A stretch of 64,000 nucleotides of DNA, taken from contig JAYWIR010000026.1 of NCBI GenBank assembly GCA_036172245.1, positions 806,001-870,000 of the forward strand, in the 5' to 3' direction. Source of the stretch: Raillietiella orientalis. Taxonomy: Eukaryota. The notes beneath the pieces were generated by a model, which searched no databases, was not told the origin of the DNA, and saw nothing but the letters and a program-made list of their open reading frames with translations. The position numbers were made by a program, and so were the translations under genes. Shown one piece after another: positions 44,215 through 64,000 of the stretch; positions within the stretch are counted from its first letter, which is position 1; each line of letters begins with the position of its first letter.

Positions 44215-46417
44215 TTTTCACCCGGTCACGCCGGGGCGTTTATTGAAAATAAATCGGTCAAAGACAATGTCTTTAACCAAAGAAACGACAGGGAGAAAAG
44301 AGAAGTTACCGGCACACAGGTCTGGTTAACAAACCGCTTCCAACAACACTGAGGGAGTAGAGGGATAACAAACAAAAATCAAAATCTCGAGGGAGGGGTA
44401 ACATGTCTTTGGTGAAGCTCCGTACTCACGGGAATTCCAATAGAGAGCACCTAAAATGTTCCGGAGCCTAATAGGGCGAAAGTGGAAAGAAAAAAAAAAA
44501 AACATTTGAAGGGGGCGAGGGAAAAGGTTCACCGGGTGCGCTGTTGGGTATCGTCTGTAAACCGTCGACGTACGCTAGCGAGATCCCTTTTCGTATCCTC
44601 GGTCAATTGAGGCCATCTGGCGGCTCCTTCCATATAGAAAGATGCTTTGCTGATCACCTCTTGGTACTGCTTGGTGATTATCAGCGCCTGGCGGACGGAA
44701 ACTATCGCGCGTATGCAACCGATGATTGCAATCCTTGCGCTTAGTGACAGCCCGCTCGGCGTGAAGAATCGTCGCAGCAAATCTCTTGCGGTGTCCACGG
44801 GATGCATTAGTGCTGTTGCCAGCCTACGCCACAGTCCTTGTAGGACACCGCAGTCCAGAAGTAGGCGCGGAATCGACTCGGTCGATCCGCACCGAACGCA
44901 GTTCGCAGACGCAAGTCCCCCGGAGTCACGATGCCAACGCTCGTTGCACTGAAAACCCCAGTGAACGAAAAGCAGCACGGCTTGTTTCCAAGCAAGAAGG
45001 AGCAGCGAACTGTCGACACACTGTGGAGGGACTACAAGTTCTTCGGGGGTGACACCAAGTTCTTCTGCCCACCGGAGGAGTCCCTTTGCAGTAACACGAG
45101 GAGTGGCGGCGTCCGCCAGCTCACTCGTCTTCCAGGCGCCAAGGAGTTTGGTTTTTCCCACTATCGTGCAGGAAACCTCCCACCTCGCCGGTTGGTAACT
45201 GTCGTTTCTTGCCTCGAGGGCAGACAGCGCTGCGGCAAGAGGCGTGGCAGCCAGGGTAGAAAACTTCACCTCGTCCTGCAAAACTTCTTATAAGGATCAT
45301 GGAGAAAATTGGCGCAGGGGGCGAAGATCTTCAGGGCGTTTTCCTTGGAACGCCGCCCAGGATTCAACACACTCCTGCCAACAAGCTTCAAAGTTCATTG
45401 GGCGGCAGGAGATCCACGAGTAAGCTTCCAGAAGTGCGGTCAACTGCCGCAATGGAAACCCGAAACCCCGCTTCCTGTATTTAGTGCTTCGCAAAAGCGA
45501 GAGAAATCCTCCGCTGCCGGCGCATCTCCGCAGGAGAATGCGGGCTGGCACACACAGGGGGGATGTCCATAGCTGGGCACACAGTGCCAGCAGTCGGAAC
45601 TGCACCTGCAGTCCGATTCGCTCCATTGTCAGGATACCCAAACCAGCATCCCGACGCGGAGCAACCAAATCTTTAAGGCGGATCCTAAATCTCGCCGGAC
45701 CCTAGAGAACGTTCCTGAGCAGGCGTTTAGACCGCTGTTTCGCCCCATGGGGGGGTCCAAAACAAAAAACCAGGGACGGAAGAGGGGGGCCACAAAGGTG
45801 TTCCAAATAGTCGCCCGTTCCTGCAAGGTGAACTTGCCGTTAATGAACGGGCTGATGGCCAACTCTGCTTTCTAAAGACAGTCCGCCCACGCTTCGGCTG
45901 CGCCGACAGCGCCCAACGGAACGCCAAGGTACTTAAAGTACCCGCCCGTGGGGATCCTCAGACGGATAAAGTCGGACTGCCCCTCCCACGACGCACCCAC
46001 AGGAACGACCACGCTCTCCTCTCTGTTTACGCTCACGCCCGCTCCCCGACGAATCAGGTCGAAGAAATCCTCGACACTAGACGCCGGGGTGGACATGGGG
46101 AGCAGAAGAAGCAGGTCATCAGCGTAGGCGGCCACGGCAGGCGTACCCGGGGAGGAGCATGGCAAGTGAGACAGGGTCAGCCTGCACGCTCTCAGCACCA
46201 ACTCAAAGAAGATGCTAAAGAGCAACGGGCTCAAGCTGCCGCCCTGTGGGATGCCCCTACGCACGGGAATACCGTACACGCGGCAGCCGCTGAAAGTGAT
46301 GCAGGTTAGTGCGTGGCACCAGCAGGCGCGCAAATACAGCAGGAGTTCTGCCGGGAACCCAAGGCGTTCCATAAGCTCCAAGAGCAGCTTCTGGTTTACG
46401 CAGTCGAACGCCTTGTG
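44215..46417 (-). mobile_element. Family A copy A3, 3' part (RT to 3' end), degenerate
   Basis: Highly similar to 53838-56039 with a diverged 3' UTR; interrupted by D at HKAFD. Confidence 0.95.
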
Positions 46418-47823
46418 CGCTCTAGGGTGGACGTGTTTTCTCGGTGCTCCTCGTGCCAGGAAGTCTCCCCCAGTGCAAGCGTCGTGTGGTTCTGTGGTCG
46501 ATCAGCGAGCGATGCCTGACGCGACCACCAGGAATGGCCAGGGGGCAGCGGCAACGCCGCCCCCAGAGGCGATGGAGAGCCAGGGGGCGGCGGCAACGTC
46601 GCCCCCGGAGGCGATGGAGGTGGGGGCATCCACCCCCACAGAATCGGTCCCCGCTGCAGCGCGGGCGTGGAGCGCCGTTGTGTCGGCGCCATCGCCTGCA
46701 GCCGCGGTGGAATTGTCGGCCTATGTGGAGGAGGGGTACAACCCCTCATTGTTCTACAAGGTAGGCAATTTATATTCCTTAGAGAGCGCGCGCGCCTTCT
46801 CGAAGGGCATGCGCGCTCTCGATGTGAAAGAGGAGGAGCTTAGCGCTATGACCATCCGCAGCGGGGGTCAGTACGTTGAGGTCATCTGCAAACATGCAGA
46901 GCTGGCCCAACGACTGCTTAAAACCCCCGTTGTGATGGGGACGCGCAGGCTTCTCCCCACTACGGCGGACCGCAGCATGGTGGTCCACCTGTTAGGCGTG
47001 ACCGCGCGAATGCGCAAAGAACAGGTTCGCGCCGCTTTGGAACAGTTCGGAACGGTCCACGCGCAGTGGACGAAAGTAAGTCCTTTCGAGGACTACACGG
47101 GGCTGCAACACGGCCTCACTGCTGCGCGCGTGACCGTTCGGGAGGGCTGCACTCTTCCCCACAAACTGGTGGTCGAAGGCGAAACCGTCGACCTCTGGTA
47201 TGTGGGGAAGCCGAAATACTGCGGCTTCTGCAATACGTCGGGCCACCTCAAAAAGAGGTGTCCCAATGTGCAGTGCCAAGTATGCGGCACAATGGGCCAC
47301 ACGAGGAAGGTGTGCCCAAAAGCAGCAGTGCGGGTGGTTTCCAAGAGAAACCTTAAAAAACGCGCCCGGCTTCTGCAAAAAAGGCTGGCGGCGAAAGCTG
47401 CTGCGAAGGCTGTGCCCCCCGCGCCCAAGACCCAGGCCGCACCCGAGACCCCGCCGACAAACGCCGAAAAAGTTGAGGGAGCCGGCCAGGAGACTGGGTG
47501 GCAAGTGGCAACGGCCAAAAAATCAAAGAAGGAGAGGAGGATGGAAAAAAAAATCGCCTACCAACAGAAGAAGAAAGAGCAGGGTAGCGCGATAATTAAA
47601 GAGTGCAGCGTCGTTGTCGAACGCGTTCTCGATGTTGCCGAACGCTGCCGGAAAGAACTCGCCGCTACCGACAACCTCCCCTCTGTTGACACAGTCAACA
47701 GCGAGGGGAGCGAGCCGGCGGCGGCGTCCGTCATCGACACCACCATCGATGACGTAGCCTTCGCGCGAGCCGCGGAGGAGCTGGCAGCCTCCTTGCAGCC
47801 AGAACCCTCCACGGCCAGTAGGA
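46418..47823 (+). mobile_element. Family D copy: 5' UTR and ORF1 (ATG 46512), interrupted by E
   Basis: GGACGTGTTTT, 42-nt duplicated QGAAATxPPEAME unit, two CCHC knuckles. Confidence 0.93.
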
Positions 47824-50133
47824 GGACGTGTTTTTCCTTCACTCCCCAAAGAGTAGTAGGAAAGCGCTTTTTCTTCTGTGTGGTGTTTTGTGTACATCGT
47901 CGGTGTCCAATGGCCACGACGCCAGAGGACACCGCCATGGAGGTGGGAGTGGGGGAGGCTAGTTCGCCCCCACAGCCTACTGGAGCAGGGGCAGCCGCCC
48001 CGGAATCATCCCCGGCCACGCCGAGGACATGGAGCGCCATGGTGGCCGCGCCCAGCGCAGAAGCCATAGCGGAGATGGCCGCATACAAGGCCTCCGGGTA
48101 CAAGCCATCGCTTGTCTACCAGGTAGGCAACTTGTTCGACGGCCGGACAGCGCGCGCCTTCAGCAAAGCGTTGAAGGACGCGACTGTTAATGAGAAGGAT
48201 CTGGACGGCCTCTCCGTCCTCAGCGGCGGGCAGCGGGTCGAGGTGGTCTGCAAAGATGTCACCTTGGCTCACCGCCTAATCCATGCGCCGCTGAACGTAG
48301 ACGGCCGCAAGATCCTGCCAGTATCAATGGACCGCTCCGTGGTGGTCCACATGACTGGCATCACCAGCCGCATGACGCGGTCAGCGGTTGGTGAGGAATC
48401 GCGAAAGTACGGTGAGGTGCACGCACTGTGGCCGAAACCCTCCATTTTCGACGGCTTCGATAGCCTTTTTGGTGGGCAGGCTGCAGCGCGGGTCACCGTA
48501 CGGGAGAATTGTGGGCTTCCCCACAAACTACAGGTGGCGCAAGAAAACGTCGACCTGTGGTATGTAGGGAAGCCCCGGTATTGCGGGCATTGTGATACCG
48601 TGGGACACCTACGTAAAAGGTGTCTCAATATACAATGCCATTTGTGCGGGGAGCGGGGCCACGTTCGGCGCGTGTGCCCCAAACGCCCCACCCCGGTTCC
48701 CCCTGCCGCGAAAAAAGCGCAGGGGAAACGCGCTTCAAAGGTCTCTAGACCTAAAGTAGAAAAGGGCCAGCACAAGCCGCCAACACCTCAACCTCCGGAG
48801 CGTAAGGCGGAGGATAAACCTTCTGAAACGGTGGAAGGCGAAGAGGGATGGCAGCTTGTAGAGGCCAGAAAGCCGAGGAAACTCCCACCCGCGGAGAGCA
48901 AAGAGCGCAAGACGGCCGGCCGGTAAGCCGAAGAAACCCGGTCGGCGCTCTAAGACCATGCGGGAGTGTACGGTAGCACTGGAACGAATCGTCGTTCCCG
49001 AGATTGCCACCCGGAGCGTCGATCCTCCCCTTGCCGTTTCCGCTGCGCCCGAGGCTCGCGACAGCGAACCCTCTGTTTACACAGAGGGTGAGCCGCGCGA
49101 CATAGCGGCGGTCGAAGCCGCGGACGCCGCGTTCGCGCAAGCGGCGGAGGAGCTCGCGGTCACGCTGGCCGAGCGTGAGAACCCCTCGCGCAAGGCCGTG
49201 CGAAGGCCGGCTCCGGCGAAGAAGGCCCCCACAGGTGAGTTAGACCTGGGGGCCGGAAGCACATCCTCCTCCTCGGAGGCACCCCCCAGGAAGTGGGGAC
49301 GCAAGTCCCAGAAGCCCAGGAGGCGCCTCCCCTCCACCAGCGAGGAGGAGAAGACGGAAGCCGTCGCCAGCGTGGGAAATTCGGAGGAGGAATTCCCACG
49401 CTCGGAAGTCGTCGATGCGGCCACCCCCATGGAGGAGGGTGAACAGGGGGGTGAAGTCCCCCCTGCAGGCGCCGACCCTGAACATCCCGCCCCCATGGAG
49501 GAGGGCGAACAGGTAGGCGCGACTCCACCTGCGGGTGATCCGGCCGACGCGCCGGCACCGATGGAGGAGGGGGACCAGGTGCCTTCAGCACCTGACCCCC
49601 CTCCTCCACCTAGCGTCCCGCCCCAGCAGGTGGCGGACGCCGCACTGCCATCTTCCCAGGAGTAACACCTGGGCTCGCCAGTCGCCGTCGGATTCGCGCG
49701 GCCTGTTGGAATGTCAACGGGCTGCGCGACGACGGTAACAGGCGAGATACAGCCGACACCCTGCGTGAGCTCGACCTGGCCCTGCTGCAGGAGATCCACG
49801 TGATCACCGCGGCAGACGTCCAGGAGATCGAGACGATCGCGGGAGGTCGGCTGTACTGGCAATGCGGCATCCGCAACACCTGCGGGGTCGCGTTCTTCGT
49901 GAAGCCGGCCATCGACGCTGCCGTGAAGAACGTGCGCTTCGATGACGACGGTCGGGTCGGTCAGCTGACTCTCGGCTGGTCGGACTCGATCGATCTGATC
50001 GTCACGAATGTGTACGCCCCAACCGGTCAAAAGGGATACAGCAACCGTACCAGGCTGCTTGAATCCTTGAAGCGCGACTGGCTGGCGAAAACGAGCGTGC
50101 GGAAGGCTCACCTGATAGCGGGAGATTTCAATC
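47824..50133 (+). mobile_element. Family E 5' part: ORF1 (47910-49665, one frameshift near 48920) and endonuclease up to GDFN
   Basis: GGACGTGTTTTT, CCHC knuckles, PMEEG repeats, WNVNG, LLQEIH, NVYAP, AGDFN. Confidence 0.95.
50125..50133 (+). repeat. Target-site duplication ATTTCAATC (also 56040-56048, 61955-61963; minus strand 44206-44214)
   Basis: Exact 9-mer at each family A boundary. Confidence 0.95.
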
Positions 50134-50211
50134 GAGTGCGGACGTGTTTTTCTTCGCTCTCGTCTCCGTGCTTTCATCCGCTTCATCTTGGCGTCGTACA
50201 TTTTGACGACG

Positions 50212-52134
50212 ATGTCGACCCAACTTGAAGCTACTGAAGCTGGAGGAACAGCATCCGGATCTGCAATCGCGGAACCGACGGCCGCCTCCACTTCGTCTTT
50301 CTCGCCAATGGACAGGAGATTTGCTGACGTTGCTGCCACAGCAGCCGTCAAAGGGAAACCACTCGACGAGTCGGAGTTGCGGGCATACGTAGCCCAAGGC
50401 TATAGACCTGCTCTCCGATATAAGGTGAGTGGTTTTCTTTCTGCGCGCGACGGGAATCAGTTCAACGATGAACTGACGCGTGTTGGCGTGCGGGAGGAGG
50501 ACCTTCTCGCCATTATGCCCGTAAAAGACATGGGCTATTTCAAGGTGCGTTGCAAAGACGCTGCACTTGTGCAACGTTTGCTGCGCACCCCGTTGTCGAT
50601 CCGTGGCCAGAAGGTCTTCCCGGCCGCCATGGACGACTAATTTGTGGTGGAGATTTTCGACATCGAGTCGGAAATCTCCGATACTGATATTCGGAACGCG
50701 TGGGCAGAATTCGCCACAGTCCATACGCTGTGGAGGGTGCGTAGCAACCTCAAGGACTTCCCGTCCATACACAGCGGAGTCGCTGGAGTCCGGCTTACAA
50801 TGCCGGACCGCCGTCTGCTGCCCACGAAACTACAGGTGAAAGACACGGTCGTTCACCTGTGGTTCGTGGGCAAAGTAAAAACGTGCGAGCAATGCGGGAA
50901 GGAGGGGCATTGTTTGGATAAATGCCCCTCTGGAAAATGCCGTTATTGCAAACTATCCGGGCACCAATTGAAAAATTGCCCGGATCTTTTGCGAAAAAAG
51001 GCAGCCGCGGAGCTCCATTTTAAAAAACAAAGCGCGGATAAAAAGAAAAAATCTGCGAAAAAGCTGGAGACCCCACGGCAGAAATTCGGTAAAAACGCGA
51101 GGCGGAATGTCGCCCCAAAGCAGCAGGAAACCTCGCACGCGAAGCCCTGCGCACCCCCTCTCGCGGCAGGGGAGCCGCAAAAGAAAGGGTGCGGGGAATC
51201 CGGGGCAATGGTAAGTCCCCCTAGGCGCAATAGCTGTCCTTCCCAAGCACGCCCGGCTCTTTCGGAGTTCGAGCAACCGGCGGGGACGTCAATGGACAAC
51301 GGCGGTAAGGACACTTCCAGTACCGTCAGATCCATTCCCTCACCTCCTGCAGTGGCTGAGAAGCCCAAATCGGGTAAGAAGGGTTGTGCCGTGTCGACTT
51401 CGAAAGTTGGCAAAAAAAAATCCGCGTCGCGATCCAACACCGCGAAGGCGGAGAAGAATCTCACGCCGTCGCAGTCAGAGAGCAAGCTCTCGACTGGCGC
51501 GGATGCCATGCCAAAGAAGGGAGTAAAAGCCCTTCCGAAGGCAGCGTCCATGACGAGCGTGTCGAACCCATCGAAAGTGCTCCCGTTTAAAGACGCGGAT
51601 GGCTTCAAAGATGGCAATGGAGCACAATCTCCATTTACGGCGCCACGCGAAGTGAGGAACCGTAATGAAGTTAAGAAGACTTCAGCAAAGGTCCCTCGTG
51701 CAACTGCGCGTGAGCACGCTGAAAACGCGCGCGCCGGGAAAGCAGCCGTCACCAAAAGCGATGCCCTGGTGACGGAAAACGAAACCAGGACAGCTGTCAA
51801 TCCAGCAGAACCTGTCACTGCTTCGCGGAAGGCCGAAATCCGATCGAACATGCGCCGGTCGGACTCCGAAATGGATGCCGTTCCGATCACCGAGACGAGG
51901 ACAACTCGTTCGAAAGCGTGTGCGCGCCGATCAAAAGTAGGCAGCCAGGCAACGCTCGCCGCGAAGCAACGCGAAGTCTCCACGAAACCCGACGGGGTTC
52001 AGCCTGGCGTGGAGGCATTACATGCATGCAGCACGACAGAGGACGGTGGCGACCGTCCCCTCCAGCCAGTCGTGCTGCTCGCCGTCTGCTCGCCGGATAA
52101 AGCGAGCAAAAAGCCGCCACCTTCCCAGCAGTAA
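50212..52134 (+). pseudogene. A1 ORF1 (two CCHC knuckles) with a single nonsense codon
   Basis: TAA at 50638-50640 where A2 has TCA; CEQCGKEGH..CRYCKLSGH. Confidence 0.92.
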
Positions 52135-55100
52135 TGCGGGGAATCGCGTCTTCTCGTCGTCTGTCCGTAACGTGTTGGAACGTGAACGGAATACAGAACG
52201 ACGAGAAGAGGCGATTAGTAGCCAACGCCCTGCGCCCCTTCGACCTCGCGCTCCTGCAGGAGATTCACGTAATCTCCGACGAGCAGTCAGCCGAAATCGA
52301 GGATCGCGCAGGCGGAACGCTACATTGGCGGTGCGGCGGCGCACACACGTGCGGCGTCGCGTTCCTCGTAAGAGTAAAAATGGCGGAAGCGGTGCGTAGT
52401 GTTCGTTTCGATGACAACGGACGGATAGGCCAGCTTGTCATCAAGTGGTCCGAGTCCATCGATCTCGTCGTTACGAACGTCTACGCGCCGAGTGGCTCTC
52501 GCTACCTCGAAGAAAGAGTAGCTTTCTTTGGTGAGGTGCAGAGCCAGTGGCTCAACAACTCCGGTTTCCAAGTGGCGCACCTCGTCGCTGGGGACTTCAA
52601 CGTCCGCCTGCTCTCCGACGATTGGAGCCGCCCGAGGGAGCGCGCGCTGCCCATCGAGATGTGCGCGTCCGTGCACGCCGCCAACTTGATGGTCAGCGAA
52701 CCTGGAATGGAAAGATCGCTCGATCACGTTTTCCTCGATGAAAACCTGCATTCGCGTGTGGGCAGGAGAGGAAGATTGTTGACTAGGCTTTCTGACCACC
52801 ACAGGTTGGAGTTTGAGATCCTTCCGCCAGGCAGGGGGCCTCCGTTGCAAAACTGGAGGATGCAGGCGGATTGGCTTAGCCAACCGGAGGCTGCGGAGCA
52901 TCTACGTAGATACCTCCGAGGCTTTGCCATTCAAGAACTTGCGGACTGGGACGATCTCAAAAGATCTGTCCGCGAGTTCTGCTGCCAATTCCCCTTGCAC
53001 CGGCTTCCACGCGGTTTCGGAGAGGGCGTGGCCAACAGTAGAGACTTTCTGCAGGCCCGCACGTTTTCGAGACGCGCGGATGTCGGGCGTCTCGCGGAGT
53101 ACAAGGCGAGGGCCGAGCGCCAGGTCTGGGAGTCCGGAGCAGCATGCCTGTTGGACGACAAGGGCCAGGAATGTTCGGCCCCAGCCGAAGTACGCCGCAT
53201 TGTGGGACGCTACTACTCCTCGCTCTACGCGGATTCCCCGACGGAGGATATTCTTTCTGAGATACTCCTGTCTCAGGATGCTCGTGTTGTCGGCGAGGAG
53301 GAACGCGAACGTCTCGACGAGCCCTTCACGGCGGATGAATTTTCGTCCGCCATCGCTGGGCTGAAGAGACGAAAGGCGCCAGGCGAGGATGGGCTCCCTG
53401 CAGAGTTTTATCAGTGCTTTGCAGTGGAGCTCATTCCCTTGATGCTTAAACTCGCGAAGCTGATGAGTGAATCCGGGAATGTCCCTGATTCCTTCCGCTC
53501 AGCGAAGGTGCGTCTCCTGCCGAAAGGCGGAGACTTGCGCCAACTTAACAACTGGCGTCCGATCACCTTGGTGAACTCGGACGTCAAGTTGTTTTCCAAA
53601 CTGTGGGTCGCGCGGTTAGGAAGAATCGCGGAATCTGTGGTGAGCCCGGAACAAACCTACGCGGTTCCGGGACGATCCATGGAGGCGAACATCCTTTTCG
53701 CGCGTACATGGATGCAGCTGCAGGAAGTTGTGGCGCAGCAAAGCCAGGCTGCTGCGAACGTCACTGCCGCAGGCAAAAAGAACAGGCGCCGACGGCAGGA
53801 GGGAACGCCAGGTGCCTTGGCGGTCGCGGTCGATCTCCACAAGGCGTTCGACTGCGTAAACCAGAAGCTGCTTTTGGAGCTTATGGAACGCCTTGGGTTC
53901 CCGGCGCAACTCCTGCTGTATTGGCGCGCGTGCTGGCGCCACGCGCTAACCTGCATCACTTTTAGCGGCTGCCGCGTGTATGGTATTCCCGTTCGTAGGG
54001 GCATCCGACAGGGCGACAGCTTAAGCCCGTTGCTCTTCAGCATCTTCTTTGAGTTGGTGCTAAGAGCATACAGGCTGACGCTGTCTCACTTGCCAAGCTC
54101 CTGCCCGGGAACGCCTGCCGTGGCCGCCTACGCTGATGACCTGCTTCTTCTGCTTCCCATGTCCACCCCGGCGTCCAGTGTCGAGGATTTCTTCGACCTG
54201 ATTCGTCGGGGAGCGGGCGTGAGCGTGAACAGAGAGAAGAGCGTGGTCGTTCCTGTGGGTACGTCGTGGGAGGGGCAGTCCGACTGGATCCGCCTGGGGA
54301 TCCCCACGGGCGGGTACTTTAAGTACCTTGGCGTTCCGTTGGGCGCTTTCGGCGCAGCCGAAGCGTGGGCGGACTGTCTTCAGAAAGCAGAGTTGGCCAT
54401 CAGCCCGTTCTTTAACGGCAAGTTTACCTTGCAGGAACGGGCGACTATTTGGAACACCTTTGTGGCCCCTCTCCTCCGTCCCCTGTTTTTTGTTTTGGAC
54501 CCCCCCTATGCGGCAAAACAGCGGGCTAAGCGCCTGCTCAGGAACGCTCTCTGGGGTCCGGCGAGATCCAGGATCCGCCTTAAAGATTTGTCAGCTCCGC
54601 GTCGGGATGCTGGTTTGGGTATCCTGACAATGGAGCGAATCGGACTGCAGGTGCAGTTCCGACTGCTGGCACTGTGTGCCCAGCTATGGACATCCCCCCT
54701 GTGTGTGCCAGCTCGCATTCTCTTGCGGAGATGCGCCGGCAGCGGAGGATTTCTCTCGCTTTTGCCGGGCACTCAATACAGGAAGCGGGGTTTCGGGTTT
54801 CCATTGCGGCAGTTGACCGCACTTCTGGAAGCACACTCTTGGATCTCCTGCCGCCCAATGAACTTTGAAGCTTGGCGGCAGGAGTCTGTTGAATCCTGGG
54901 CGGCGTTCCAAGGAATACGCCCTGAAGATCTTCGCCCCCTGCGCCCATTTTTTCCACGATCCTTGGAAGAAGTACTGCAGGACGAGGTGAAGTTTTCTAC
55001 CCTGGCTGCCACGCCTCTTGCCGCAGCGCTGTCTGCCCTCAGGGCAAGAAACGACAGTTACCAACCGGCGAGGTGGGAGGTTTCCTGCACGATAGCGGGA

Positions 55101-55727
55101 AGAACCAAACTCCTTGGCACCTGGAAGACAAGTGAGTTGGCGGACGCCGCCACTCCTCGTGTTACTGCAAAGGGACTCCTCCGGTGGGCAGAAGAACTTG
55201 CTGTCATCCCCGAAGAACTTGTGGTCCCTCCACAGTGTATGGACAGTTCGCTGCTTCCCCTTGCTTGGAAACAAGCCGTGCTGCTTTTCGTTCACTGGGG
55301 TTTTCAGTGCAACGAGCGTTGGCATCGTGACTCCGGGGGACTTGCGTCTGCGAACTGCGTTCGGTGCGGATCGAGGGAGTCGATTCCGCACCTACTTCTG
55401 GACTGCGGTGTCCTACAAGGACTGTGGCGTAGGCTGGCAACAGCACTATTGCATCCCGTGGACACCGCAAGAGACTTGCTGCGACGATTCTTCACGCCGA
55501 GCGGGCTTTCACTAAGAGCAAGGATTGCAACCATCGGTTGCATACGCGCGATAGTTTCCGTCCGCCAGGCGTTGGTAATCAACGGACAGCACCAAGAGGT
55601 AATCAGCAAAGCATCCTTCTACATGGGAGCATCCGCTAGATGGCCTCATTTGACAGAGGAGACAAAGAGGAATCTCGCCGCAATACACCGCCGGTTTACA
55701 CACCCTCATCAGCGGCCAACCCGGTGA
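52134..55727 (+). CDS. A1 ORF2: intact APE endonuclease / reverse transcriptase / CCHC protein, 1197 aa
   Basis: WNVNG, LQE, NVYAP, GDFN, LDH, SDH; KAPGEDG, WRPITL, DLHKAFD, QGDSLSP, YADD, KYLG; CVRC..HLLLDC. Confidence 0.98.
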   Translation: MRGIASSRRLSVTCWNVNGIQNDEKRRLVANALRPFDLALLQEIHVISDEQSAEIEDRAGGTLHWRCGGAHTCGVAFLVRVKMAEAVRSVRFDDNGRIGQLVIKWSESIDLVVTNVYAPSGSRYLEERVAFFGEVQSQWLNNSGFQVAHLVAGDFNVRLLSDDWSRPRERALPIEMCASVHAANLMVSEPGMERSLDHVFLDENLHSRVGRRGRLLTRLSDHHRLEFEILPPGRGPPLQNWRMQADWLSQPEAAEHLRRYLRGFAIQELADWDDLKRSVREFCCQFPLHRLPRGFGEGVANSRDFLQARTFSRRADVGRLAEYKARAERQVWESGAACLLDDKGQECSAPAEVRRIVGRYYSSLYADSPTEDILSEILLSQDARVVGEEERERLDEPFTADEFSSAIAGLKRRKAPGEDGLPAEFYQCFAVELIPLMLKLAKLMSESGNVPDSFRSAKVRLLPKGGDLRQLNNWRPITLVNSDVKLFSKLWVARLGRIAESVVSPEQTYAVPGRSMEANILFARTWMQLQEVVAQQSQAAANVTAAGKKNRRRRQEGTPGALAVAVDLHKAFDCVNQKLLLELMERLGFPAQLLLYWRACWRHALTCITFSGCRVYGIPVRRGIRQGDSLSPLLFSIFFELVLRAYRLTLSHLPSSCPGTPAVAAYADDLLLLLPMSTPASSVEDFFDLIRRGAGVSVNREKSVVVPVGTSWEGQSDWIRLGIPTGGYFKYLGVPLGAFGAAEAWADCLQKAELAISPFFNGKFTLQERATIWNTFVAPLLRPLFFVLDPPYAAKQRAKRLLRNALWGPARSRIRLKDLSAPRRDAGLGILTMERIGLQVQFRLLALCAQLWTSPLCVPARILLRRCAGSGGFLSLLPGTQYRKRGFGFPLRQLTALLEAHSWISCRPMNFEAWRQESVESWAAFQGIRPEDLRPLRPFFPRSLEEVLQDEVKFSTLAATPLAAALSALRARNDSYQPARWEVSCTIAGRTKLLGTWKTSELADAATPRVTAKGLLRWAEELAVIPEELVVPPQCMDSSLLPLAWKQAVLLFVHWGFQCNERWHRDSGGLASANCVRCGSRESIPHLLLDCGVLQGLWRRLATALLHPVDTARDLLRRFFTPSGLSLRARIATIGCIRAIVSVRQALVINGQHQEVISKASFYMGASARWPHLTEETKRNLAAIHRRFTHPHQRPTR

Positions 55728-56048
55728 TCATTGCCCTACCCTCCATAAACTAAATTTGTATTTTCTTTTACACCCGCGTCCCCATAGGCTCCGGAACATT
55801 TGAGGTGCTCATCGTTTAAATCCCCGTGAGTACGGAGCCTAACCAAAAACCCTTTTCCCTTCCCTCCAGTTTTTGATTTTTGTTTGTTTCCCCTCATTCC
55901 CCCCACGCTGCGAGCGGTTTGTTTACCAGGCCTGCGTGCCGGTAATTTTTCTATGTTCTCCGTCGTTCTCTTGGTTGGGGACATTGTCCCTGACCAGTTT
56001 ATTATTATTAATAAACGCCCCGGCGTGACCGGGTGATAAATTTCAATC

Positions 56049-59000
56049 GAGTGCGGACGTGTTTTTCTTCGCTCTCGTCTCCGTGCTTTCATCCGCTTCA
56101 TCTTGGCGTTGTACATTTTGACGACGATGTCGACCCAACTTGAAGCTACTGAAGTTGGAGGAACAGCATCTGGATCTGCAATCGCGGAACCGACGGCCGC
56201 CTCCACTTCGTCTTTCTCGCCAATGGAGAGGAGTTTTGCTGACGTTGCTGCCACAGCAGCCGTCAAAGGGAAACCTCTCGACGAGTCGGAGTTGCGGGCA
56301 TACGTAGCCCAAGGCTATAGACCTGCTCTCCGATATAAGGTGAGTGGTTTTCTTTCTGCGCGAGACGGGAATCAGTTCAACGATGAACTGACCCGTGTTG
56401 GCGTGCAGGAGGAGGACCTTATCGCCATTATGCCCGTAAAAGACATGGGCTATTTCAAGGTGCGTTGCAAAGACGCTGCACTTGTGCAACGCTTGCTGCG
56501 CACCCCGTTGTCGATCCGTGGTTAGAAGGTCTTCCCGGCCGCCTTGGACGACTCATTTGTGGTGGAGATTTTCGACATCGAGTCGGAAATCTCCGATACT
56601 GATATTCGGAACGCGTTGGCGAAATTCGCCACGGTCCATGCGCTGTGGAGGGTGCGTAGCAACCTCAAGGACTTCCCGTCCATACACAGCGGAGTCGCTG
56701 GAGTCCGGCTTACAATACCGGACCGCCGTCTGCTGCCCACCAAAGTACAGGTGAAAGACACAATCGTTCACCTGTGGTTCGTGGGCAAAGTAAAAACGTG
56801 CGAGCAATGCGGGAAGGAGGGGCATTGTTTGGATAAATGCCCCTCTGGAAAATGCCGTTATTGCAAACTATCCGGGCACCAATTGAAAAATTGCCCGGAT
56901 CTTTTTCGAAAAAAGGCAGCCGCGGAGCTCCATTTTAAAAAACAAAGCGCGGATAAAAAGAAAAAATCTGCGAAAAACCTGGAGACCCCACGGCAGAAAT
57001 TCGGTAAAAACGCGAGGCGGAATGTCGCCCCAAAGCAGCAGGAAACCTCGCACGCAAAGCCCTGCGCACCCCCTCTCGCGGCAGGGGAGCCGCAAAAGAA
57101 CGGGTGCGGGGAATCCGGGGCAATGGTAAGTCCCCCTAGGCGCAATAGCTGTCCTTCCCAAGCACGCCCAGCTCTCTCGGAGTTCGAGCAACCGGCGGGG
57201 ACGCCAATGGACAACGGCGGTAAGGACACTTCCAGTACCGTCAGATCCATTCCTTCACCTCCTGCAGTGGCTGAGAAGCCCAAATCGGGTAAGAAGGGTT
57301 GTGCCGTGTCGACTTCGAAAGTCGGCAAAAAAAAATCCGCGTCGCGATCAAACACCGCGAAAGCGGAGAAAAATCTCACGCCGTCGCAGTCGGAGAGCAA
57401 GCTCTCGACTGGCGCGGATGCCATGCCAACGAAGGGATTAAAAGCCCTTCCGAAAGCAGCGTCCATGACGAGCGTGTCGGAGCCATCGACAGTGCTCCCG
57501 TCCAAAGACGCGGATGGCTTCAAAGATGGCCATGGAGCACAATCTCCATTTACAGCGCCACGCGAAGTGAGGAACCGTAATGAAGTAAAGAAGACTTCAG
57601 CAAAGGTCCCTCGTGCAACTGCGCGTGAGCACGCTGAAAACGCGCGCGCCGGGAAAGCAGCCGTCACCAAAAGCGATGCTCTGGTGACGGAAAACGAAAA
57701 CAGGACAGCTGTCAATCCAGCAGAACCTGTCACTGCTTCGCGGAAGGCCGAAACCCGATCGAATATGCGCCGGTCGGACTCCGAAATGGATGCCGTTCCG
57801 ATCACCGAGACGAGGACAACTCGTTCGAAAGCGTGTGCGCGCCGATCAAAAGTAGGCAGCCAGGCAACGCTCGCCGCGAAGCAACGGTAAGTCTCCACGA
57901 AACCCGACGGGATTAAGCCTGGCGTGGAGGCATTACATGCTTGCAGAACGACGGAGGACGGTGGCGACCGTCCCCTCCAGCCAGTCGTGCTGCTCGCCGT
58001 CTGCTCGCCGGATAAAGCGAGCAAAAAGCTGCCACCTTCCCAGCAGTAATGCGGGAAATCGCGTCTTCTCGTCGTCTGTCCGTAACGTGTTGGAACGTGA
58101 ACGGACTGCAGAACGACGAGAAGAGGCGATTAGTAGCCAACGCCCTGCGCCCCTTCGACCTCGCGCTCCTGCAGGAGATTCACGTAATCTCCGACGAGCA
58201 GGCAGCCGAAATCGAGGAGCGCGCAGGCGGAACGCGACATTGGCGGTGCGGCGGCGCACACACGTGCGGCGTCGCGTTCCTCGTAAGAGGAAAAATGGCG
58301 GAAGCGGTGCGTAGTGTTCGTTTCGATGACAACGGACGGATAGGCCAGCTTGTCATCAAGTGGTCCGAGTCCATCGATCTCGTCGTTACGAACGTCTACG
58401 CGCCGAGTGGCTCTCGCTACCTCGAAGAAAGAGTAGCTTTCTTTGGTAAGGTGCAGAGCCAGTGGCTCAACAACTCCGGCTTCCAAGTGGCGCACCTCGT
58501 CGCTGGGGACTTCAACGTCCGCCTGCTCTCCGACGATTGGAGCCGCCCGAGGGAGCGCGCGCTGCCCATCGAGATGTGCGCGTCCGTGCACGCCGCCAAC
58601 TTGATGGTCAGCGAACCTGGAATGGAAAGATCGCTCGATCACGTTTTCCTCGATGAAAACCTGCATTCGCGTGTGGGTAGGAGAGGAAGATTGTTGACTG
58701 AGCTTTCTGACCACCACAGGTTGGAGTTTGAGATCCTTCCGCCAGGCAGGGGGCCTCGGTTGCAAAGCTGGAGGATGCAGGCGGATTGGCTTAGCCAACC
58801 GGAGGCTGCGGAGCATCTACGTGGATACCTCCGGGGCTTTGCCATTCAAGAACTTGCGGACTGGGACGATCTCAAAAGATCTGTCCGCGAGTTCTGTTGC
58901 CAATTCCCCTTGCACCGGCTTCCACGCGGTTTCGGAAAGGGCGTGGCCAACAGCAGAGACTTTCTGCAGGCCCGCACGTTTTCGAGACGCGCGGATGTCG

Positions 59001-61954
59001 GGCGTCTCGCAGAGTACAAGGCGAGGACCGAGCGCCAGGTCTGGCAGTCCGAAGCAGCAGACCTGTTGGACGACAAGGGCCAGGAATGTTCGGCCCCAGC
59101 CGAAGTACGCCGCATTGTGAGACGCTACTACTCCTCGCTGCACGCGGAATCCCCGACGGAGGATATTCTTTCTGAGATACTCCTGTCTCAGGATGCTCGT
59201 GTTGTCGGCGAGGAGGAACGCGAACGTCTCGACGAGCCCTTCACGGCGGATGAATTTTCGTCCGCCATCGCTGGGCTGAAGAGACGAAAGGCGCCAGGCA
59301 AGGATGGGCTCCCTGCAGAGTTTTATCAGTGCTTTGCAGTGGAGCTCATTCCCTTGATGCTTAAACTCGCGACGCTGATGAGTGAATCCGGGAATGTCCC
59401 TGATTCCTTCCGCTCAGCGAAGGTGCGTCTCCTGCCGAAAGGCGGAGACTTGCGCCAACTTAACAACTGGCGTCCGATCACCTTGGTGAACTCGGACGTC
59501 AAGTTGTTTTCCAAGCTGTGGGTCGCGCGGTTAGGAAGAATCGCGGAATCTGTGGTGAGCCCGGAACAAACCTACGCGGTTCCGGGACGATCCATGGAAG
59601 CGAACATCCTTTTCGCGCGTACATGGATGCAGCTGCAGGAAGTTGTGGCGCAGCAAAGCCAGGCTGCTGCGAAAGTCACTGCCGCAGGCAAAAAGAACAG
59701 GCGCCGACGGCAGGAGGGAACGCCAGGTGCCTTGGCGGTCGCGGTCGATCTCCACAAGGCGTTCGACTGCATAAACCAGAAGCTGCTTTTGGAGCTTATG
59801 GAACGCCTTGGGTTCCCGGCGCAACTCCTGCTGTATTTGCGCGCGTGCTGGCGCCACGCGCTAACCTGCATCACTTTTAGCGGCTGCCGCGTGTATGGTA
59901 TTTCCGTTCGTAGGGGCATCCGACAGGGCGACAGCTTAAGCCCGTTGCTCTTCAGCATCTTCTTTGAGTTGGTGCTAAGAGCATACAGGCTGACGCTGTC
60001 TCACTTGCCAAGGTCCTGCCCGGGAACGCCTGCCGTGGCCGCCTACGCTGATGACCTGCTTCTTCTGCTCCCCATGTCCACCCCGGCGTCCAGTGTCGAG
60101 GATTTCTTCGACCTGATTCGTCGGGGAGCGGGCGTGAGCGTGAACAGAGAGAAGAGCGTGGTCGTTCCTGTGGGTACGTCGTGGGAGGGGCAGTCCGACT
60201 GGATCCGCCTGGGGATCCCCACGAACGGGTACTTTAAGTACCTTGGCGTTCCGTTGGGCGCTTTCGGCGCAGCCGAAGAGTGGGCGGACTGTCTTCAGAA
60301 ATCAGAGTTGGCCATCAGCCCGTTCTTTAACGGCAAGTTTACCTTGCAGGAACGGGCGACTATTTAGAACACCTTTGTGGCCCCCCTCCTGCGTCCCCTG
60401 TTTTTTGTTTTGGACCCCCCCTATGCGGCAAAACAGCGGGCTAAGCGCCTGCTCAGGAACGCTCTCTGGGGTCCGGCGAGATCCAGGATCCGCCTTAAAG
60501 ATTTGTCAGCTCCGCGTCGGGATGCTGGTTTAGGTATCCTGACAATGGAGCGAATCGGACTGCAGGTGCAGTTCCGACTGCTGGCACTGTGTGCCCAGCT
60601 ATGGACATCCCCCCGTGTGTGCCAGCTCGCATTCTCCTGCGGAGATGCGCCGGCAGCGGAGGATTTCTCTCGCTTTTGCCGGGCACTCAATACAGGAAGC
60701 GGGGTTTCGGTTTTCCATTGCGGCAGTTGACCGCACTTCTGGAAGCACTCTCTTGGATCTCCTGCCGCCCAAGGAACTTTGAAGCTTGGCGGCAGGAGTC
60801 TGTTGAATCCTGGGCGGCGTTCCACGGAATACGCCCTGAAGATCTTCGCCCCCTGCGCCAATTTTTTCCACGATCCTTGGAAGAAGTACTGCAGGACGAG
60901 GTGAAGTTTTCTACCATGGCTGCCACGCCTCTTGCCGCAGCGCTGTCTGCCCTCGAGGCAAGAAACGACAGTTACCAACCGGCAAGGTGGGAGGTTTCCT
61001 GCACGATAGCGGGAAGAACCAAACTCCTTGGCACCTGGAAGCCAAGTGAGTTGGCGGACCCCGCCACTCCTCGTGTTACTGCAAAGGGACTCCTCCGGTG
61101 GGCAGAAGAACTTGGTGTCACCCCCGAAGAACTAGTAGTCCCTCCACAGTGTATGGACAGTTCGCTGCTCCCCCTTGCTTGGAAACAAGCCGTGCTGCTT
61201 TTCGTTCACTGGGGTTTTCAGTGCAACGAGCGTTGGCATCGTGACTCCGGGGGACTTGCGTCTGCGAACTGCGTTGGGTGCGGATCGACGGAGTCGATTC
61301 CGCACCTACTTCTGGACTGCGGTGTCCTACAAGGACTGTGGCGTAGGCTGGCAACAGCACTATTGCATCCCGTGGACACCGCAAGAGACTTGCTGCGACG
61401 ATTCTTCACGCCGAGCGGGCTTTCACTAAGCGCAAGGATTGCAACCATCGGTTGCATGCGCGCGATAGTTTCCGTCCGCCAGGCGTTGGTACTCAACGGA
61501 CAGCACGAAGAGGTAATCAGCAAAGCATCCTTCTACATGGGAGCATCCGCTAGATGGCCTCAATTGACAGAGGAGACAAAGAGGAATCTCGCCGCAATAC
61601 ACCGCCGGTTTACACACCCTCATCAGCGGCCAACCCGGTGATCATTGCCCTACCCTCCATAAACTAAATTTGTATTTTCTTTTTACACCCGCGTCCCCAT
61701 AGGCTCCGGAACATTTTAGGTGCTCATCGTTTAAATCCCCGTGAGTACGGAGCCTAACCAAAAACCCGTTACCCTTCCCTCCAGTTTTTGATTTTTGTTT
61801 GTTTCCCCTCATTCCTCCCACGCTGCGAGCGGTTTGTTTACCAGGCCTGCGTGCCGGTAATTTTTCTATGTTCTCTGTCGTTCTGTTGGTTAAGGACATT
61901 GTCCCTGACCAGTTTATTATTATTAATAAACGCCCCGGCGTGACCGGGTGATAA
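56049..61954 (+). mobile_element. Full-length family A element A2 (5906 bp), inactivated
   Basis: Tandem with A1. ORF1 stops at 56523 and 57888; ORF2 TAG at 60365 and a frameshift near 60612. Confidence 0.97.
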
Positions 61955-64000
61955 ATTTCAATCTCCGCCTGCTAACAGGTGAGCCGGAAACACAAGTGAA
62001 CGCGATGAACGAGTTGTGCGCCGCCATGCGTGCGCGCAACTTGTTCTCGGGTGAGAGGGGAATGGTCCGCAGCATCGACCACGTCTTCCTCGACGCTGCC
62101 CTGTGTTCACGGGTCGGCAAACGGGGGAGGGTTGCGTCAACGTTGTCGGACCATTTCCGGTTAATTTTCGAGATGCGGCCTCGCGACAAAGGACCGCCAT
62201 TCAGAGACTGGCGTCTGCCGGGGGACTGGACGCGACTCTCAGGTGCGAAGGAACACCTTCGCGAATACCTGAGAGGCGTCACGCTCCGGAATCTCCAAGA
62301 CTGGGACCTTTTTAAGGAATCGGTCCGGGAATTCTGCGAGCAGTTCCCCCTGGACCGCCTGCCCTCCGGATTCGGCGAGGGTCCTCGCAACCATCGGGCC
62401 TATTTACAGGCCCGTAGGTACGAACGAACCCCTAATGTCCGTCGCCTGGCCGAGTACCGCGCCGGGGCCGAACGCCAAGCCTGGCAATCCGGGTCGGCCA
62501 GCTTGCTGGACGACCAGGGCCGGGAATGTTCGTCCCCGGCGTCGGTACGGCATCTCGTGCGGAGCTATTATTCCTCCCTTTACGCCAGGGCGCCCCCGGA
62601 TCAAGATGCCTCTCGGCTCTTGCTTCCGGATGGTGCCCCGGCAATAGGGGAGGAGGAGTCGTTAAGCCTCGATGAGCCTTTTACCACCGGCGAAATTCTC
62701 GCCGGTATCAAAAGGCTCAAGAGGCGGAAAGCTCCAGGGGAAGACGGCTTGCCCGCGGAGTTCTATCAGAGCTTCGCGGTAGAGCTGGCACCCCTGCTGC
62801 TTCAGCTGACAAGGCTGATCAGAGACGAAGGCGATGTTCCCGCCTCGTTTCGGTCAGCCAGAGTGAGGCTCCTGCCGAAAGGGGGAGACCTCAGGGATTT
62901 AAAGAACTGGCGTCCGATCACGATCGTGAATACGGACGCCAAGTTGATCGCAGGGTTATGGGCTTAGCGTCTGGGGCAGGTGGCAGAATCCGTAATTAGC
63001 CCGGAGCAGACTTATGCTGTTCCCGGGCGAAGTATGGATGCCAACCTCTTCTTCGCGAGCACGTGGATGCACGCGCAGAGGTGTCAAAAGGAAGGGAAAG
63101 GAAAAATCGGCAACCCCACTTTGGGGCCGCCAGCAGGGCAGGGAATGGATTCCCGGGCGGGGAAGGGGGCCTTAGCGCTCGCAGTCGATCTCCATAAGGC
63201 GTTCGACTGTGTTGACCAGGGGCTTTTGTTGGAGCTCCTGGGTCGCATGGGCTTCCCACCCTCCTTGATCAACTACCTGCGCTCCTGCTGGCGCCATGCG
63301 ATAGTTTCCGTCTCTTTCAGCGGTCAGAAGGTGCATGGCGTGCCGGTGCGGCGGGGCATCAGGCAGGGAGATAGCCTGAGTCCCCTGCTCTTCAGCACCT
63401 ACTTTGAGTTGGTGCTGAGAGCCTACAGGGTGACTTTGGCCTCCTTGCCTAGCTCGTGTCCCGGCACGCCCGCCGTAGCAGCCTATGCCGACGACCTTCT
63501 GCTCCTGTTACCTATGTCCACCCCGGCGAAGGCGGTCGGAGACTTCTTCGATCTCCTCAGCCGTGGGACCGGACTGCAGGTCAACAGGGCGAAGTCGTCG
63601 GTGGTGCCAGTAGGTGCGGCGTGGGCAGGGCAGCAGGACTGGGTCCGTCTGGGGATCCCCACGGCCAGGTGCCTCAAGTACCTTGGTGTGCCGTTGGGTG
63701 ACTACTCCCCTGCGGAAGCGTGGTCCAGCTGTCTTCCAAAAGTCGTGACGGCGATCGGCCCGTTCCTGGAAGGCAAGTTTCACTTGCCGGAACGGGCCGC
63801 GGTTTGGAACGCCTTCGCGGCCCCCATCCTCCGCCCCTTGCTTTTTGTTTGCCCCGCCCCCAGAGAATGCAAAAAGAGGACGAAGGACCTCCTCCGCATC
63901 GCCCTTTGGGGCAAGGGGAGGCCCCGAGTCCCTCTGCAGGACTTGTGCGCTCCGCGTCGGGACGGCGGCCTTGACCTCCTGACGCTGGAGCGCGTGGAAA
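61955..64000 (+). mobile_element. Family E ORF2 continuation (endonuclease end and RT), runs off window
   Basis: Resumes FNLRLLTGEPETQ exactly where 50133 stopped; TAG at 62965; DLHKAFD, QGDSLSP, YADD. Confidence 0.95.

What the first reader, a model, noticed from the sequence alone, without database searches (positions are those of the whole stretch)
50125..61963. Family A inserts site-specifically into the endonuclease catalytic GDFN codons of family E
Seen: host GGA GAT TTC AAT C is interrupted by two full-length 5906-bp A copies, with ATTTCAATC before, between and after them. Deleting 50134-61963 restores AGDFNLRLLTG. A third copy with a clearly different 3' UTR ends at the same 9-mer in another E copy on the minus strand (44206-44214). 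Established: GDFN contains a catalytic Asp of APE endonucleases. Inference: sequential insertion into a regenerated target that is constrained by protein function.
Basis: partly seen in the sequence, partly recalled or inferred. Interest (0 to 1): 0.9.

Follow-up and report, generated by a model that had tools for sequence, protein, structure and literature searches.

The report
Jumping gene targeting another's endonuclease codons
A LINE-type jumping gene has landed at least twice at exactly the same nucleotide inside the catalytic GDFN codons of a related LINE, and two sister families in the same window hit other coding sites of their relatives just as precisely, which could explain how nested LINE islands build themselves.

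Summary
ATTTCAATC stands before, between and after two 5906-bp copies of element A (A1 50134-56039, A2 56049-61954; 97.6% alike). Removing them restores AGDFNLRLLTG in the endonuclease of element E. A third, 5'-truncated copy (A3, 44215-46417, minus strand) ends on the same 9-mer in a second E copy.

A is an L1-like LINE (endonuclease plus reverse transcriptase, CCHC ORF1, no poly(A), hairpin 3' end). A3 and A1/A2 are separate insertions. A3 carries G1, G1 carries E1, and E1 carries A1/A2. A3-A1 and E2-E1 divergence is biased to synonymous changes (ratio about 0.4). The 3' UTR differs by 25% but keeps a hairpin through compensatory changes.

Whether the tandem arose by a second insertion into the regenerated site or by duplication is not resolved. 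Both copies are now broken.

Two sister families show the same precision. G sits antisense at CAC|AAGGCGTTCGAC (reverse-transcriptase motif A) in two unrelated hosts. K sits antisense at endonuclease codons FD| in at least two host families.

No genome was held, so a genome-wide count of A ends was not possible. Verdict: a target-specific LINE with an unusual target, a new variant of a known kind.

The parts
47820..50124 (+). E1, 5' part: conserved 5' end (AGGAGGACGTGTTTTT), ORF1 with CCHC knuckle, and the start of ORF2 with the endonuclease up to ...LIAG. The 5' boundary is uncertain by a few bases.
50125..50133 (+). ATTTCAATC, first copy of the 9-bp target-site duplication (codons D-F-N of E1)
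50134..56039 (+). A1, full-length 5906 bp. ORF1 runs from about 50212 to 52134 with an in-frame stop at 50638. ORF2 52134-55727 is open (endonuclease + reverse transcriptase). The 3' UTR has two hairpins and ends GGGTGATAA.
56040..56048 (+). ATTTCAATC, second copy, between A1 and A2
56049..61954 (+). A2, full-length 5906 bp, 142 differences from A1. It has stops in ORF1, a stop at ORF2 codon 773, and a 1-bp deletion at A position 4567.
61955..61963 (+). ATTTCAATC, third copy
61964..64000 (+). E1, 3' part: the rest of the endonuclease (RLLTG...SIDHVF) and the reverse transcriptase (one stop). It runs off the window.
43785..44205 (-). E2: 421 bp of a second E copy downstream of the GDFN site, 88.4% identical to E1 61964-62384. 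It breaks off at 43784/5 against an unrelated reverse-transcriptase fragment.
44206..44214 (-). ATTTCAATC at the A3/E2 junction
44215..46417 (-). A3: an older A subfamily copy covering A positions about 3714-5906, cut at reverse-transcriptase codons H|KAFD by G1
46418..47819 (+). G1: the 5' part of family G (5' end CGCTCTAGGGTGGACGTGTTTT, ORF1), inserted antisense into A3 and itself interrupted by E1 just after the ORF1 motif AAEELAASLQ
1..1142 (-). G2: a second G copy (95% identical to G1) whose 5' end abuts the same reverse-transcriptase site in a different host (E'a, 1143-3133, +). The site is empty in the near-duplicate E'b at about 40367.
22970..23442 (-). K-a: 3' end of family K (...CCGGGTGAAAAC) abutting endonuclease codons ...CFD| of host Q (22691-22969, +), antisense
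4285..4442 (+). K'': 3' end of K abutting endonuclease codons ...QFD| of host P1 (4443-4718, -). There is a 99% duplicate at about 37070. A third K end at 26458 abuts host R (26459-26726, -).

Best explanation
A is a target-specific, L1-like non-LTR retrotransposon whose only landing site seen here is one position inside the GDFN codons of the endonuclease gene of a related LINE family, E.

Inferred mechanism, by analogy with endonuclease-bearing site-specific LINEs. The A endonuclease nicks the bottom strand of E between GGGAG and ATTTCAATC. The freed 3' OH primes reverse transcription of A RNA, which is recognised through its structured 3' end ending GGGTGA(T/A)AA. The top strand is cut 9 bp further on, which gives the ATTTCAATC duplication and precise full-length 5' ends.

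Shown: identical junctions at three copies in two E copies, and independence of the A3 and A1/A2 events. A's own GDFN DNA (GGGGACTTCAACGTC) differs from the target. One other family (F, GGGGATTTCAACCTG) is unoccupied.

Inferred: cleavage positions, the role of the 3' hairpins, and the idea that A1 and A2 arose by a second hit on the 9-mer regenerated by the first. A belongs to a guild of sister families with a shared 5' end (GGACGTGTTTT) and a shared 3' end (AATAAACGCCC, hairpin, TGA(T/A)AA). At least G and K also integrate at one exact point in coding sequence of their relatives, so the elements pile into one another.
For: 3 of 3 A copies in the window end on the same 9-mer plus E sequence, and 2 of 2 full-length 5' ends follow the 9-mer. 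No other A-family sequence is in the window.

Domains: PF03372 1.9e-12 and PF00078 2.3e-21. The best solved relative is human L1 ORF2p at 1.7e-44, against R2 at about 1e-14. ORF1 has two CCHC knuckles.

Independence of events. Nesting order is E2, then A3, then G1, then E1, then A1/A2. The non-synonymous to synonymous ratio is 0.41 for A1-A3 (p=5e-6) and 0.43 for E1-E2 (p=0.007). ORF2 is 93% identical, the 3' UTR 74-76% and the E flank 88%, which is uneven and unlike uniform neutral decay. Two compensatory pairs are kept in the 3' UTR hairpin.

Guild precedent. G sits at the same reverse-transcriptase site in A3 and in E'a, with empty sites in A1, A2, E1 and E'b. K sits at the same endonuclease codon in hosts Q, P1 and R.
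Against: Only one 64-kb window was examined. No genome is held, so A ends with other flanks elsewhere cannot be excluded.

The two independent events rest on a nesting order whose far sides (the rest of A3, G1 and E2) lie off the window.

The selection tests use a simple Nei-Gojobori count that ignores transition bias. The E1-E2 test has only 49 differences.

E2 is only a 421-bp fragment ending at a breakpoint that no simple insertion explains.

For the tandem, A1-A2 ORF2 differences look neutral (ratio 0.84, p=0.26). Private changes are equal (21 against 25). Both copies are broken. A duplication therefore fits as well as a second insertion.

No biochemical evidence exists for the nick.
Confidence: 0.8

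Rival explanations
1. A inserted into E only once, by chance. The composite then spread by segmental duplication, by retrotransposition of E RNA carrying A, or by gene conversion between E copies. The shared junctions would then reflect common descent and not target choice.
For: A3+E2 and A2+E1 align as one block of 2648 columns at 90.1%. The window carries large duplications, including 13.7 kb at 99.1%. E2 is a short fragment with an unexplained breakpoint.
Against: E1 lies, through G1, inside A3, so the E1 copy arrived after A3. Divergence is uneven (ORF2 7%, UTR 25%, E flank 12%) and biased to synonymous changes in both A and E. A dead passenger and a broken host gene would not show that. 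Compensatory changes keep a UTR hairpin. Moving E1 with both A copies as one RNA would need a template of more than 17 kb.
Confidence: 0.08
2. A is site-specific, but the tandem A1-A2 comes from a single insertion followed by a tandem duplication, or from one reverse-transcription event that jumped onto a second A RNA. It would not come from two separate insertions into a regenerated site.
For: With A3 as outgroup, private changes are equal (A1 21, A2 25, 1 ambiguous). The A1-A2 ORF2 ratio of 0.84 does not differ from neutral (p=0.26). Both copies carry disabling changes. Differences are evenly spread.
Against: The 9-mer/A/9-mer/A/9-mer layout is exactly what a second hit on either copy of the duplication predicts. 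A 9-bp repeat is a poor substrate for unequal crossing-over. ORF1 differences are biased to synonymous changes (20 and 20, ratio 0.31, p=4e-4), which hints at two slightly different source elements. A template jump would need the second RNA to end exactly 9 nt past the element.
Confidence: 0.35
3. The tandem is an assembly artefact, for example two haplotypes of one insertion laid head to tail.
For: Contigs of the one public run that holds the region did not visibly bridge the A1/A2 junction in the rows shown. The long contig that starts at 56040 has 21 other letters before it and carries A1-type letters.
Against: The junction is clean to the base (3' end, 9-mer, 5' end) and the window has no N. 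The 142 differences are spread over the whole length. The site-specific reading does not depend on the tandem, because A3/E2 gives the second event.
Confidence: 0.03

Closest known systems
Target-specific endonuclease-bearing LINEs of the Tx1 and R1 clades (Tx1L in the transposon Tx1D; Keno, Mutsu, Kibi and Koshi; R1, TRAS and SART)
   Same: Endonuclease plus reverse transcriptase in ORF2, one exact integration point in a multicopy sequence, precise junctions, and no dependence on poly(A). Transposons are listed among known targets (PMC4640811, introduction passages read). The element names are recalled.
   Different: The target is the coding sequence, at catalytic-motif codons, of a closely related LINE (A and E ORF2 are about 61% identical). 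It is not an RNA gene, a microsatellite, a telomere or a DNA transposon. Several sister families target one another. Clade membership was not tested. The nearest database proteins are 59% identical (an unnamed metagenome protein) and then 37% or less, from mixed animals, algae and plants.
Zepp / ZeppL L1 LINE clusters of green algae (Chlorella, Coccomyxa, Chlamydomonas)
   Same: L1-type LINEs that insert into existing copies and form nested clusters. The clusters are richer in GC than their surroundings: 61% against 53% in Coccomyxa, and about 55-64% against about 47% here (PMC8226300 and PMC3446292, passages read).
   Different: Zepp arrays are described as mostly 5'-truncated 3' ends. Poly(A) tails are recalled from Higashiyama 1997, which is not held. 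Here many insertions are full length, there is no poly(A), several families are involved, and the insertion points are exact to the base. I found no statement of base-exact targets for Zepp in the passages read. Relatedness to Zepp was not tested because no Zepp sequence was at hand.
Homing endonuclease genes, introns and inteins that sit in conserved active-site codons of their host genes
   Same: The logic is the same: the landing site lies in sequence the host cannot easily change (GDFN; reverse-transcriptase motif A).
   Different: The mechanism is entirely different, retrotransposition instead of homing by repair. The insertion is not spliced out, so the host element is killed. This comparison is recalled and comes from no call.
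Human LINE-1 ORF2p
   Same: It is the best solved relative (8sxt, E=1.7e-44). The endonuclease GDFN and the reverse-transcriptase motif A (..D..KAFD) align.
   Different: L1 integrates at loose TTTT/AA sites and uses poly(A) (recalled). A shows one site, a 9-bp duplication and a hairpin 3' end.

Membership tests
Endonuclease-bearing non-LTR retrotransposon, L1 superfamily | ORF2 with an N-terminal AP-like endonuclease followed by a reverse transcriptase | tested here: met
   PF03372 at residues 15-222 (1.9e-12) and PF00078 at 463-734 (2.3e-21). L1 ORF2p is the best solved match.
Endonuclease-bearing non-LTR retrotransposon, L1 superfamily | Target-site duplication, no terminal repeats, 5' truncated copies | tested here: met
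   9-bp duplication at A1 and A2. A3 lacks its 5' 3.7 kb, although here through a later insertion.
Endonuclease-bearing non-LTR retrotransposon, L1 superfamily | 3' poly(A) or A-rich tail, as in classical L1 | tested here: not met
   The element ends ...CCCCGGCGTGACCGGGTGA(T/A)AA directly on the target.
Target-specific LINE | Independent copies at the identical nucleotide of a repeated target | tested here: met
   3 copies in 2 E copies. Independence follows from nesting order and selection signatures.
Target-specific LINE | Few or no copies outside the target, genome-wide | not testable with these tools
   No genome is held. In the window, 3 of 3 copies are at the target. Contigs of one public run were uninformative.
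Target-specific LINE | Sequence-specific nicking by the element's endonuclease | not testable with these tools
   This needs a biochemical assay.
Tx1 clade | Reverse-transcriptase phylogeny places the element inside Tx1 | not tested
   No named Tx1 reference sequences were available. The nearest named hits are mixed: a turtle at 37%, Closterium at 30%, a fish and a pseudoscorpion.
Zepp / ZeppL | Nested insertion into existing LINE copies, forming a GC-rich cluster | tested here: met
   Two chains are seen: E2, A3, G1, E1, A1/A2 and P1, K, S, E'a, G2. GC is 55-64% against about 47%.
Zepp / ZeppL | Reverse transcriptase groups with Zepp; poly(A) tails; arrays mostly of 3' ends | tested here: inconclusive
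   No poly(A). There are six full-length 5' ends in the window. The phylogeny against Zepp was not run.

The most novel reading that the evidence does not exclude
The window shows a guild of sister LINE families that live on one another. Each family's endonuclease would recognise one exact site in coding sequence of other members: A at endonuclease GDFN, G antisense at reverse-transcriptase motif A (H|KAFD), K antisense at endonuclease FD|D. At least the first two sites lie in catalytic motifs that the victim cannot change. The chain E2, A3, G1, E1, A1/A2 suggests a closed cycle in which A hits E, E hits G and G hits A. Such mutual, base-exact hyperparasitism would confine all members to one self-growing island. 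It would give a simple sequence-level explanation for nested LINE clusters of the Zepp type, including one cluster per chromosome.
Probability: 0.4. Interest if true: 0.85.

Novelty: new variant of a known kind. Interest (0 to 1): 0.7.

Why it matters
Target-specific LINEs are valued as models of how a retrotransposon endonuclease reads DNA and as leads for targeted gene insertion. Known targets are RNA genes, simple repeats, telomeres and a few DNA transposons. Here the target is the catalytic-motif codons of a sister LINE, and sister families do the same to each other. If this holds genome-wide, it shows parasites of parasites among LINEs choosing sites that their victims cannot mutate away. 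It also offers a set of closely related endonucleases (about 60% identical) with different exact specificities, which suits mapping of specificity determinants. Finally it gives a testable mechanism for why some LINEs accumulate only in nested islands. My five searches and the passages I read turned up no report of a LINE targeting coding motifs of another LINE. The library lacks most subscription journals and Repbase reports, so prior description cannot be excluded.

Tried and rejected

Metagenome scan with A ORF2: 1 locus at 24% identity, of no use.

Junction pattern ACCGGGTGAWAAATTTCAATC: 1 match in genome contigs, in a Bacillaceae genome, taken as chance. There were 0 matches in viral contigs.

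Public runs: 3 runs were listed and only X1 holds the stretch (0.42 of the sampled words). No RNA holder was listed.

Contigs of X1-X3 laid on 55990-64000: 219 X1 contigs were laid, 106 of them under 90% alike. One contig ends at 61973, 10 nt past the 9-mer. One starts 21 letters before 56040. Only 16 loose ends were printed, with 142 more not shown. This says nothing for or against other flanks or the tandem junction.

Rfam: 0 matches at gathering score over the window, and nothing relevant on the A1 5' UTR at E up to 1. No self-cleaving ribozyme was found at the 5' end. There are no tRNA genes.

Earlier findings of the scan: nothing on this genome or sequence.

Pfam on 13 frames of the low-GC stretch at 6-14.8 kb: 0 families.

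Polarising A1/A2 changes with A3: 5 synonymous and 9 non-synonymous for A1, 5 and 18 for A2. The numbers are too few to date the copies.

Higashiyama 1997 and Yamamoto 2003 on Zepp are not held.

The idea that the 904-aa ORF at 46212-48926 is E's ORF1 was rejected. It reads through A3 antisense, G1 and E1.
Full report
**What is there**

In the plus-strand host the sequence GGGAG ATTTCAATC is followed by GAGTGCGGACGTG..., the 5' end of element A. After 5906 bp, A ends ...CCCCGGCGTGACCGGGTGATAA. Then come ATTTCAATC, a second 5906-bp A, ATTTCAATC again, and the host sequence TCCGCCTGCTAACAGG. BLAST of the first unit against the window gives a period of 5915 bp and 97.6% identity between A1 (50134-56039) and A2 (56049-61954). 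It also finds a third, partial copy on the minus strand (A3, 44215-46417, A positions about 3714-5906, 90.7%). A3 ends on the same 9-mer (44214-44206), followed by TCTGCCTGCTAACAGG.

Translating the two host sides separately gives ...KAHLIAGDFN and (L)RLLTGEPETQ...SIDHVF. The insertion therefore splits the GDFN motif of an AP-type endonuclease.

The 9-mer occurs four times in the window on both strands, each time at an A boundary. Shuffles expect 0.70, and 2 of 100 shuffles reach four. The argument rests on position, not on the count.

**What A and E are**

A has an ORF2 of 1197 codons with Exo_endo_phos (1.9e-12) and RVT_1 (2.3e-21) domains. Its best solved relative is human LINE-1 ORF2p (8sxt, 1.7e-44), with R2 proteins far behind at about 1e-14. 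In that alignment A's AGDFN lies on L1 G144-D145-F146-N147, and A's AVDLHKAFD lies on L1 SIDAEKAFD, with D600 counted from the printed alignment. That D145, N147 and D600 are catalytic is recalled knowledge.

ORF1 carries two CCHC knuckles. There is no poly(A). The 3' UTR folds into an 11-bp hairpin and a terminal CCCGG/CCGGG hairpin (z-scores -3.6 for A1 and -2.9 for A3).

E has an ORF1 with a weak zinc-knuckle match (0.0016, below the Pfam cut-off) and an endonuclease plus reverse-transcriptase ORF2 about 61% identical to that of A.

An exhaustive protein search finds one 59%-identical relative, an unnamed metagenome protein. The next hits are at 37% or less, from a turtle, Closterium, a fish, a pseudoscorpion and unnamed contigs. 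A is therefore L1-like in the broad sense. I did not place it in a named clade, and I do not know the organism.

First, neither tandem copy is intact. The real ORF1 starts near 50212. A1 has an in-frame stop at 50638. A2 has two other ORF1 stops, a stop at ORF2 codon 773 and a 1-bp deletion.

Second, the 904-codon frame at 46212-48926 is not E's ORF1. It runs through A3 antisense, then through a separate element G1 (46418 to about 47819), then through E1 (from about 47820). The 5' end of E1 carries the same GGACGTGTTTT motif as A1, A2, G1, G2 and H. G1 breaks off a few codons after the motif AAEELAASLQ, where the uninterrupted relatives F and E1 continue.

**Are the A3 and A1/A2 insertions one event or two?**

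1. Order of nesting. A3 sits in E2. G1's intact 5' end abuts A3 exactly at reverse-transcriptase codons CAC|AAGGCGTTCGAC. E1's intact 5' end abuts G1. A1 and A2 sit in E1. E1 therefore arrived at this locus after A3 was already there.
2. Uneven divergence. A3 against A1 is 93% identical in ORF2 but only 74-76% in the 3' UTR. E2 against E1 is 88.4% over 421 bp. Neutral decay of one copied composite should be even.
3. Selection. By Nei-Gojobori counts, A1-A3 has 55 synonymous and 71 non-synonymous differences (ratio 0.41; binomial p=5e-6 against the site proportions). E1-E2 has 20 and 29 (ratio 0.43; p=0.007). Part of both divergences therefore arose while the genes were working. For E that means before A broke it. 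The test ignores transition bias, and the E sample is small.
4. Structure kept. The 11-bp UTR hairpin differs between A1 and A3 by two fully compensatory pair changes (G-C to A-U) and one single change.

Copying of a dead composite by duplication, by E retrotransposition or by gene conversion is thus unlikely. I give it 0.08.

**The tandem**

The layout of 9-mer, A, 9-mer, A, 9-mer is what a second hit on a regenerated site predicts, but I could not prove it.

- A1 and A2 differ at 142 of 5906 positions, evenly spread, with 76 transitions and 64 transversions.
- With A3 as outgroup, 21 changes are private to A1 and 25 to A2, with 1 ambiguous.
- ORF2 differences look neutral (ratio 0.84, p=0.26), while ORF1 differences are biased to synonymous changes (20 and 20, ratio 0.31, p=4e-4).
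- Polarised counts are too small to help: 5 and 9 for A1, 5 and 18 for A2.

A tandem duplication or a template jump remains possible (0.35). An assembly artefact is unlikely (0.03), and the main claim does not depend on the tandem.

**The wider pattern**

This is the most interesting result. The window is a dense nest of related LINE families. They share a 5' end (GGACGTGTTTT at six 5' ends) and a 3' end (AATAAACGCCC, a short hairpin, then TGA(T/A)AA). Two more families show base-exact targets.

Family G. G1 in A3 and G2 (1-1142, minus strand, 95% identical to G1) in an unrelated host E'a both lie antisense at H|KAFD of reverse-transcriptase motif A. The same site is empty in A1, A2, E1 and E'b. 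E'b is the near-duplicate of E'a in a 13.7-kb inverted duplication of 99.1% identity.

Family K. Its 3' end ...GTGAAAAC abuts antisense the endonuclease codons ...FD| in host Q (22969), host P1 (4443, with a 99% duplicate near 37070) and host R (26459). Q belongs to a different family from P1 and R. P1 and R are 81.5% alike and may share ancestry, so I count at least two independent K events.

Single cases with the same clean junctions are H in E'b, N in H, M in a G-like ORF1, S in K, and E'a in S. One instance each cannot show specificity.

A's own GDFN DNA (GGGGACTTCAACGTC) and that of family F (GGGGATTTCAACCTG, 19640-19632) differ from the target and are unoccupied.

**Mechanism**

I infer target-primed reverse transcription. 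The bottom strand would be nicked between GGGAG and ATTTCAATC and the top strand 9 bp downstream, with recognition of A RNA through its structured 3' end. Nothing here shows the nick itself. No ribozyme was found at the 5' end. Because A lies in the sense orientation in E while G and K lie antisense in their hosts, co-transcription with the host cannot be a general rule for the guild.

**Comparison with what is known**

Endonuclease-bearing LINEs with exact targets are well known, and "transposons" are listed among their targets (PMC4640811, introduction passages read). Zepp and ZeppL L1 elements of green algae insert into existing copies and form nested, GC-rich clusters (PMC8226300, PMC3446292 and PMC9940879, passages read; 10.1101/2025.03.28.645958, passages read).

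What differs here is the nature of the target: exact positions in coding sequence of sister LINEs, two of them in catalytic motifs. Several families also prey on each other. My five literature searches and the passages I read turned up no report of this. The library lacks most subscription journals and Repbase reports, and the original Zepp papers are not held. I file it as a new variant of a known kind.

**Limits**

One window was examined, with no genome and no close relatives in the searchable DNA collections. One public run gave contigs that neither confirm nor deny other flanks. The far sides of the nest lie off the window.

**Verdict**

Site-specific insertion is supported at 0.8. Sequential insertion for the tandem stays open. 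Interest is 0.7.

Noticed in passing
window 1-1142 (-), 1143-3133 (+), 40367, 46417/46418: Family G inserts antisense at the same reverse-transcriptase motif A codons (CAC|AAGGCGTTCGAC) in two unrelated hosts, A3 and E'a. The site is empty in A1, A2, E1 and E'b.
   Followed up: yes
window 4442/4443, 22969/22970, 26458/26459 (and about 37070): Family K 3' ends (...GTGAAAAC) abut antisense the endonuclease codons ...FD| in three hosts from at least two families.
   Followed up: yes
window 1144-14875 and 40367-26638: A 13.7-kb inverted duplication at 99.1% identity. One end coincides with the G2 insertion point, so G2 probably inserted after the duplication.
   Followed up: partly
window 1129, 40630, 46429, 47824, 50140, 56055: The motif GGACGTGTTTT lies 7-13 nt from six element 5' ends of four families. 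It may be an internal promoter element. It fits the recalled downstream-promoter-element consensus RGWCGTG of insect LINEs, but sits much closer to the end.
   Followed up: no
window 46212-48926: A 904-codon open frame is a chance read-through of three different elements (A3 antisense, G1, E1). It would mislead gene callers.
   Followed up: yes
window 6500-14500 and 26900-35000: A low-GC stretch (about 47%) inside the duplication with no Pfam match in 13 frames tested. It has internal inverted repeats (9070-9755 against 13143-12471, 78.5%). Its nature is unknown.
   Followed up: partly
window 43784/43785 and 43031/43032: These breakpoints do not fit simple nested insertion. E2 stops at ORF2-downstream residue 140 against a reverse-transcriptase fragment that starts at residue 605. 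That fragment joins a 130-bp 3' end piece with about 1.2 kb missing.
   Followed up: no
window 24070: A further LINE 3' end (...CACCAGGGTGAAAA) with an AT-rich UTR, from another family, abuts an ORF1 on the opposite strand.
   Followed up: no
P0028: An unnamed metagenome protein of 619 residues is 59% identical to the A reverse transcriptase. A member of this guild therefore exists in an environmental sample. Its DNA context could not be fetched.
   Followed up: partly
window 939-1021 and 46537-46619: A 42-bp unit is repeated twice in the 5' region of both G copies.
   Followed up: no
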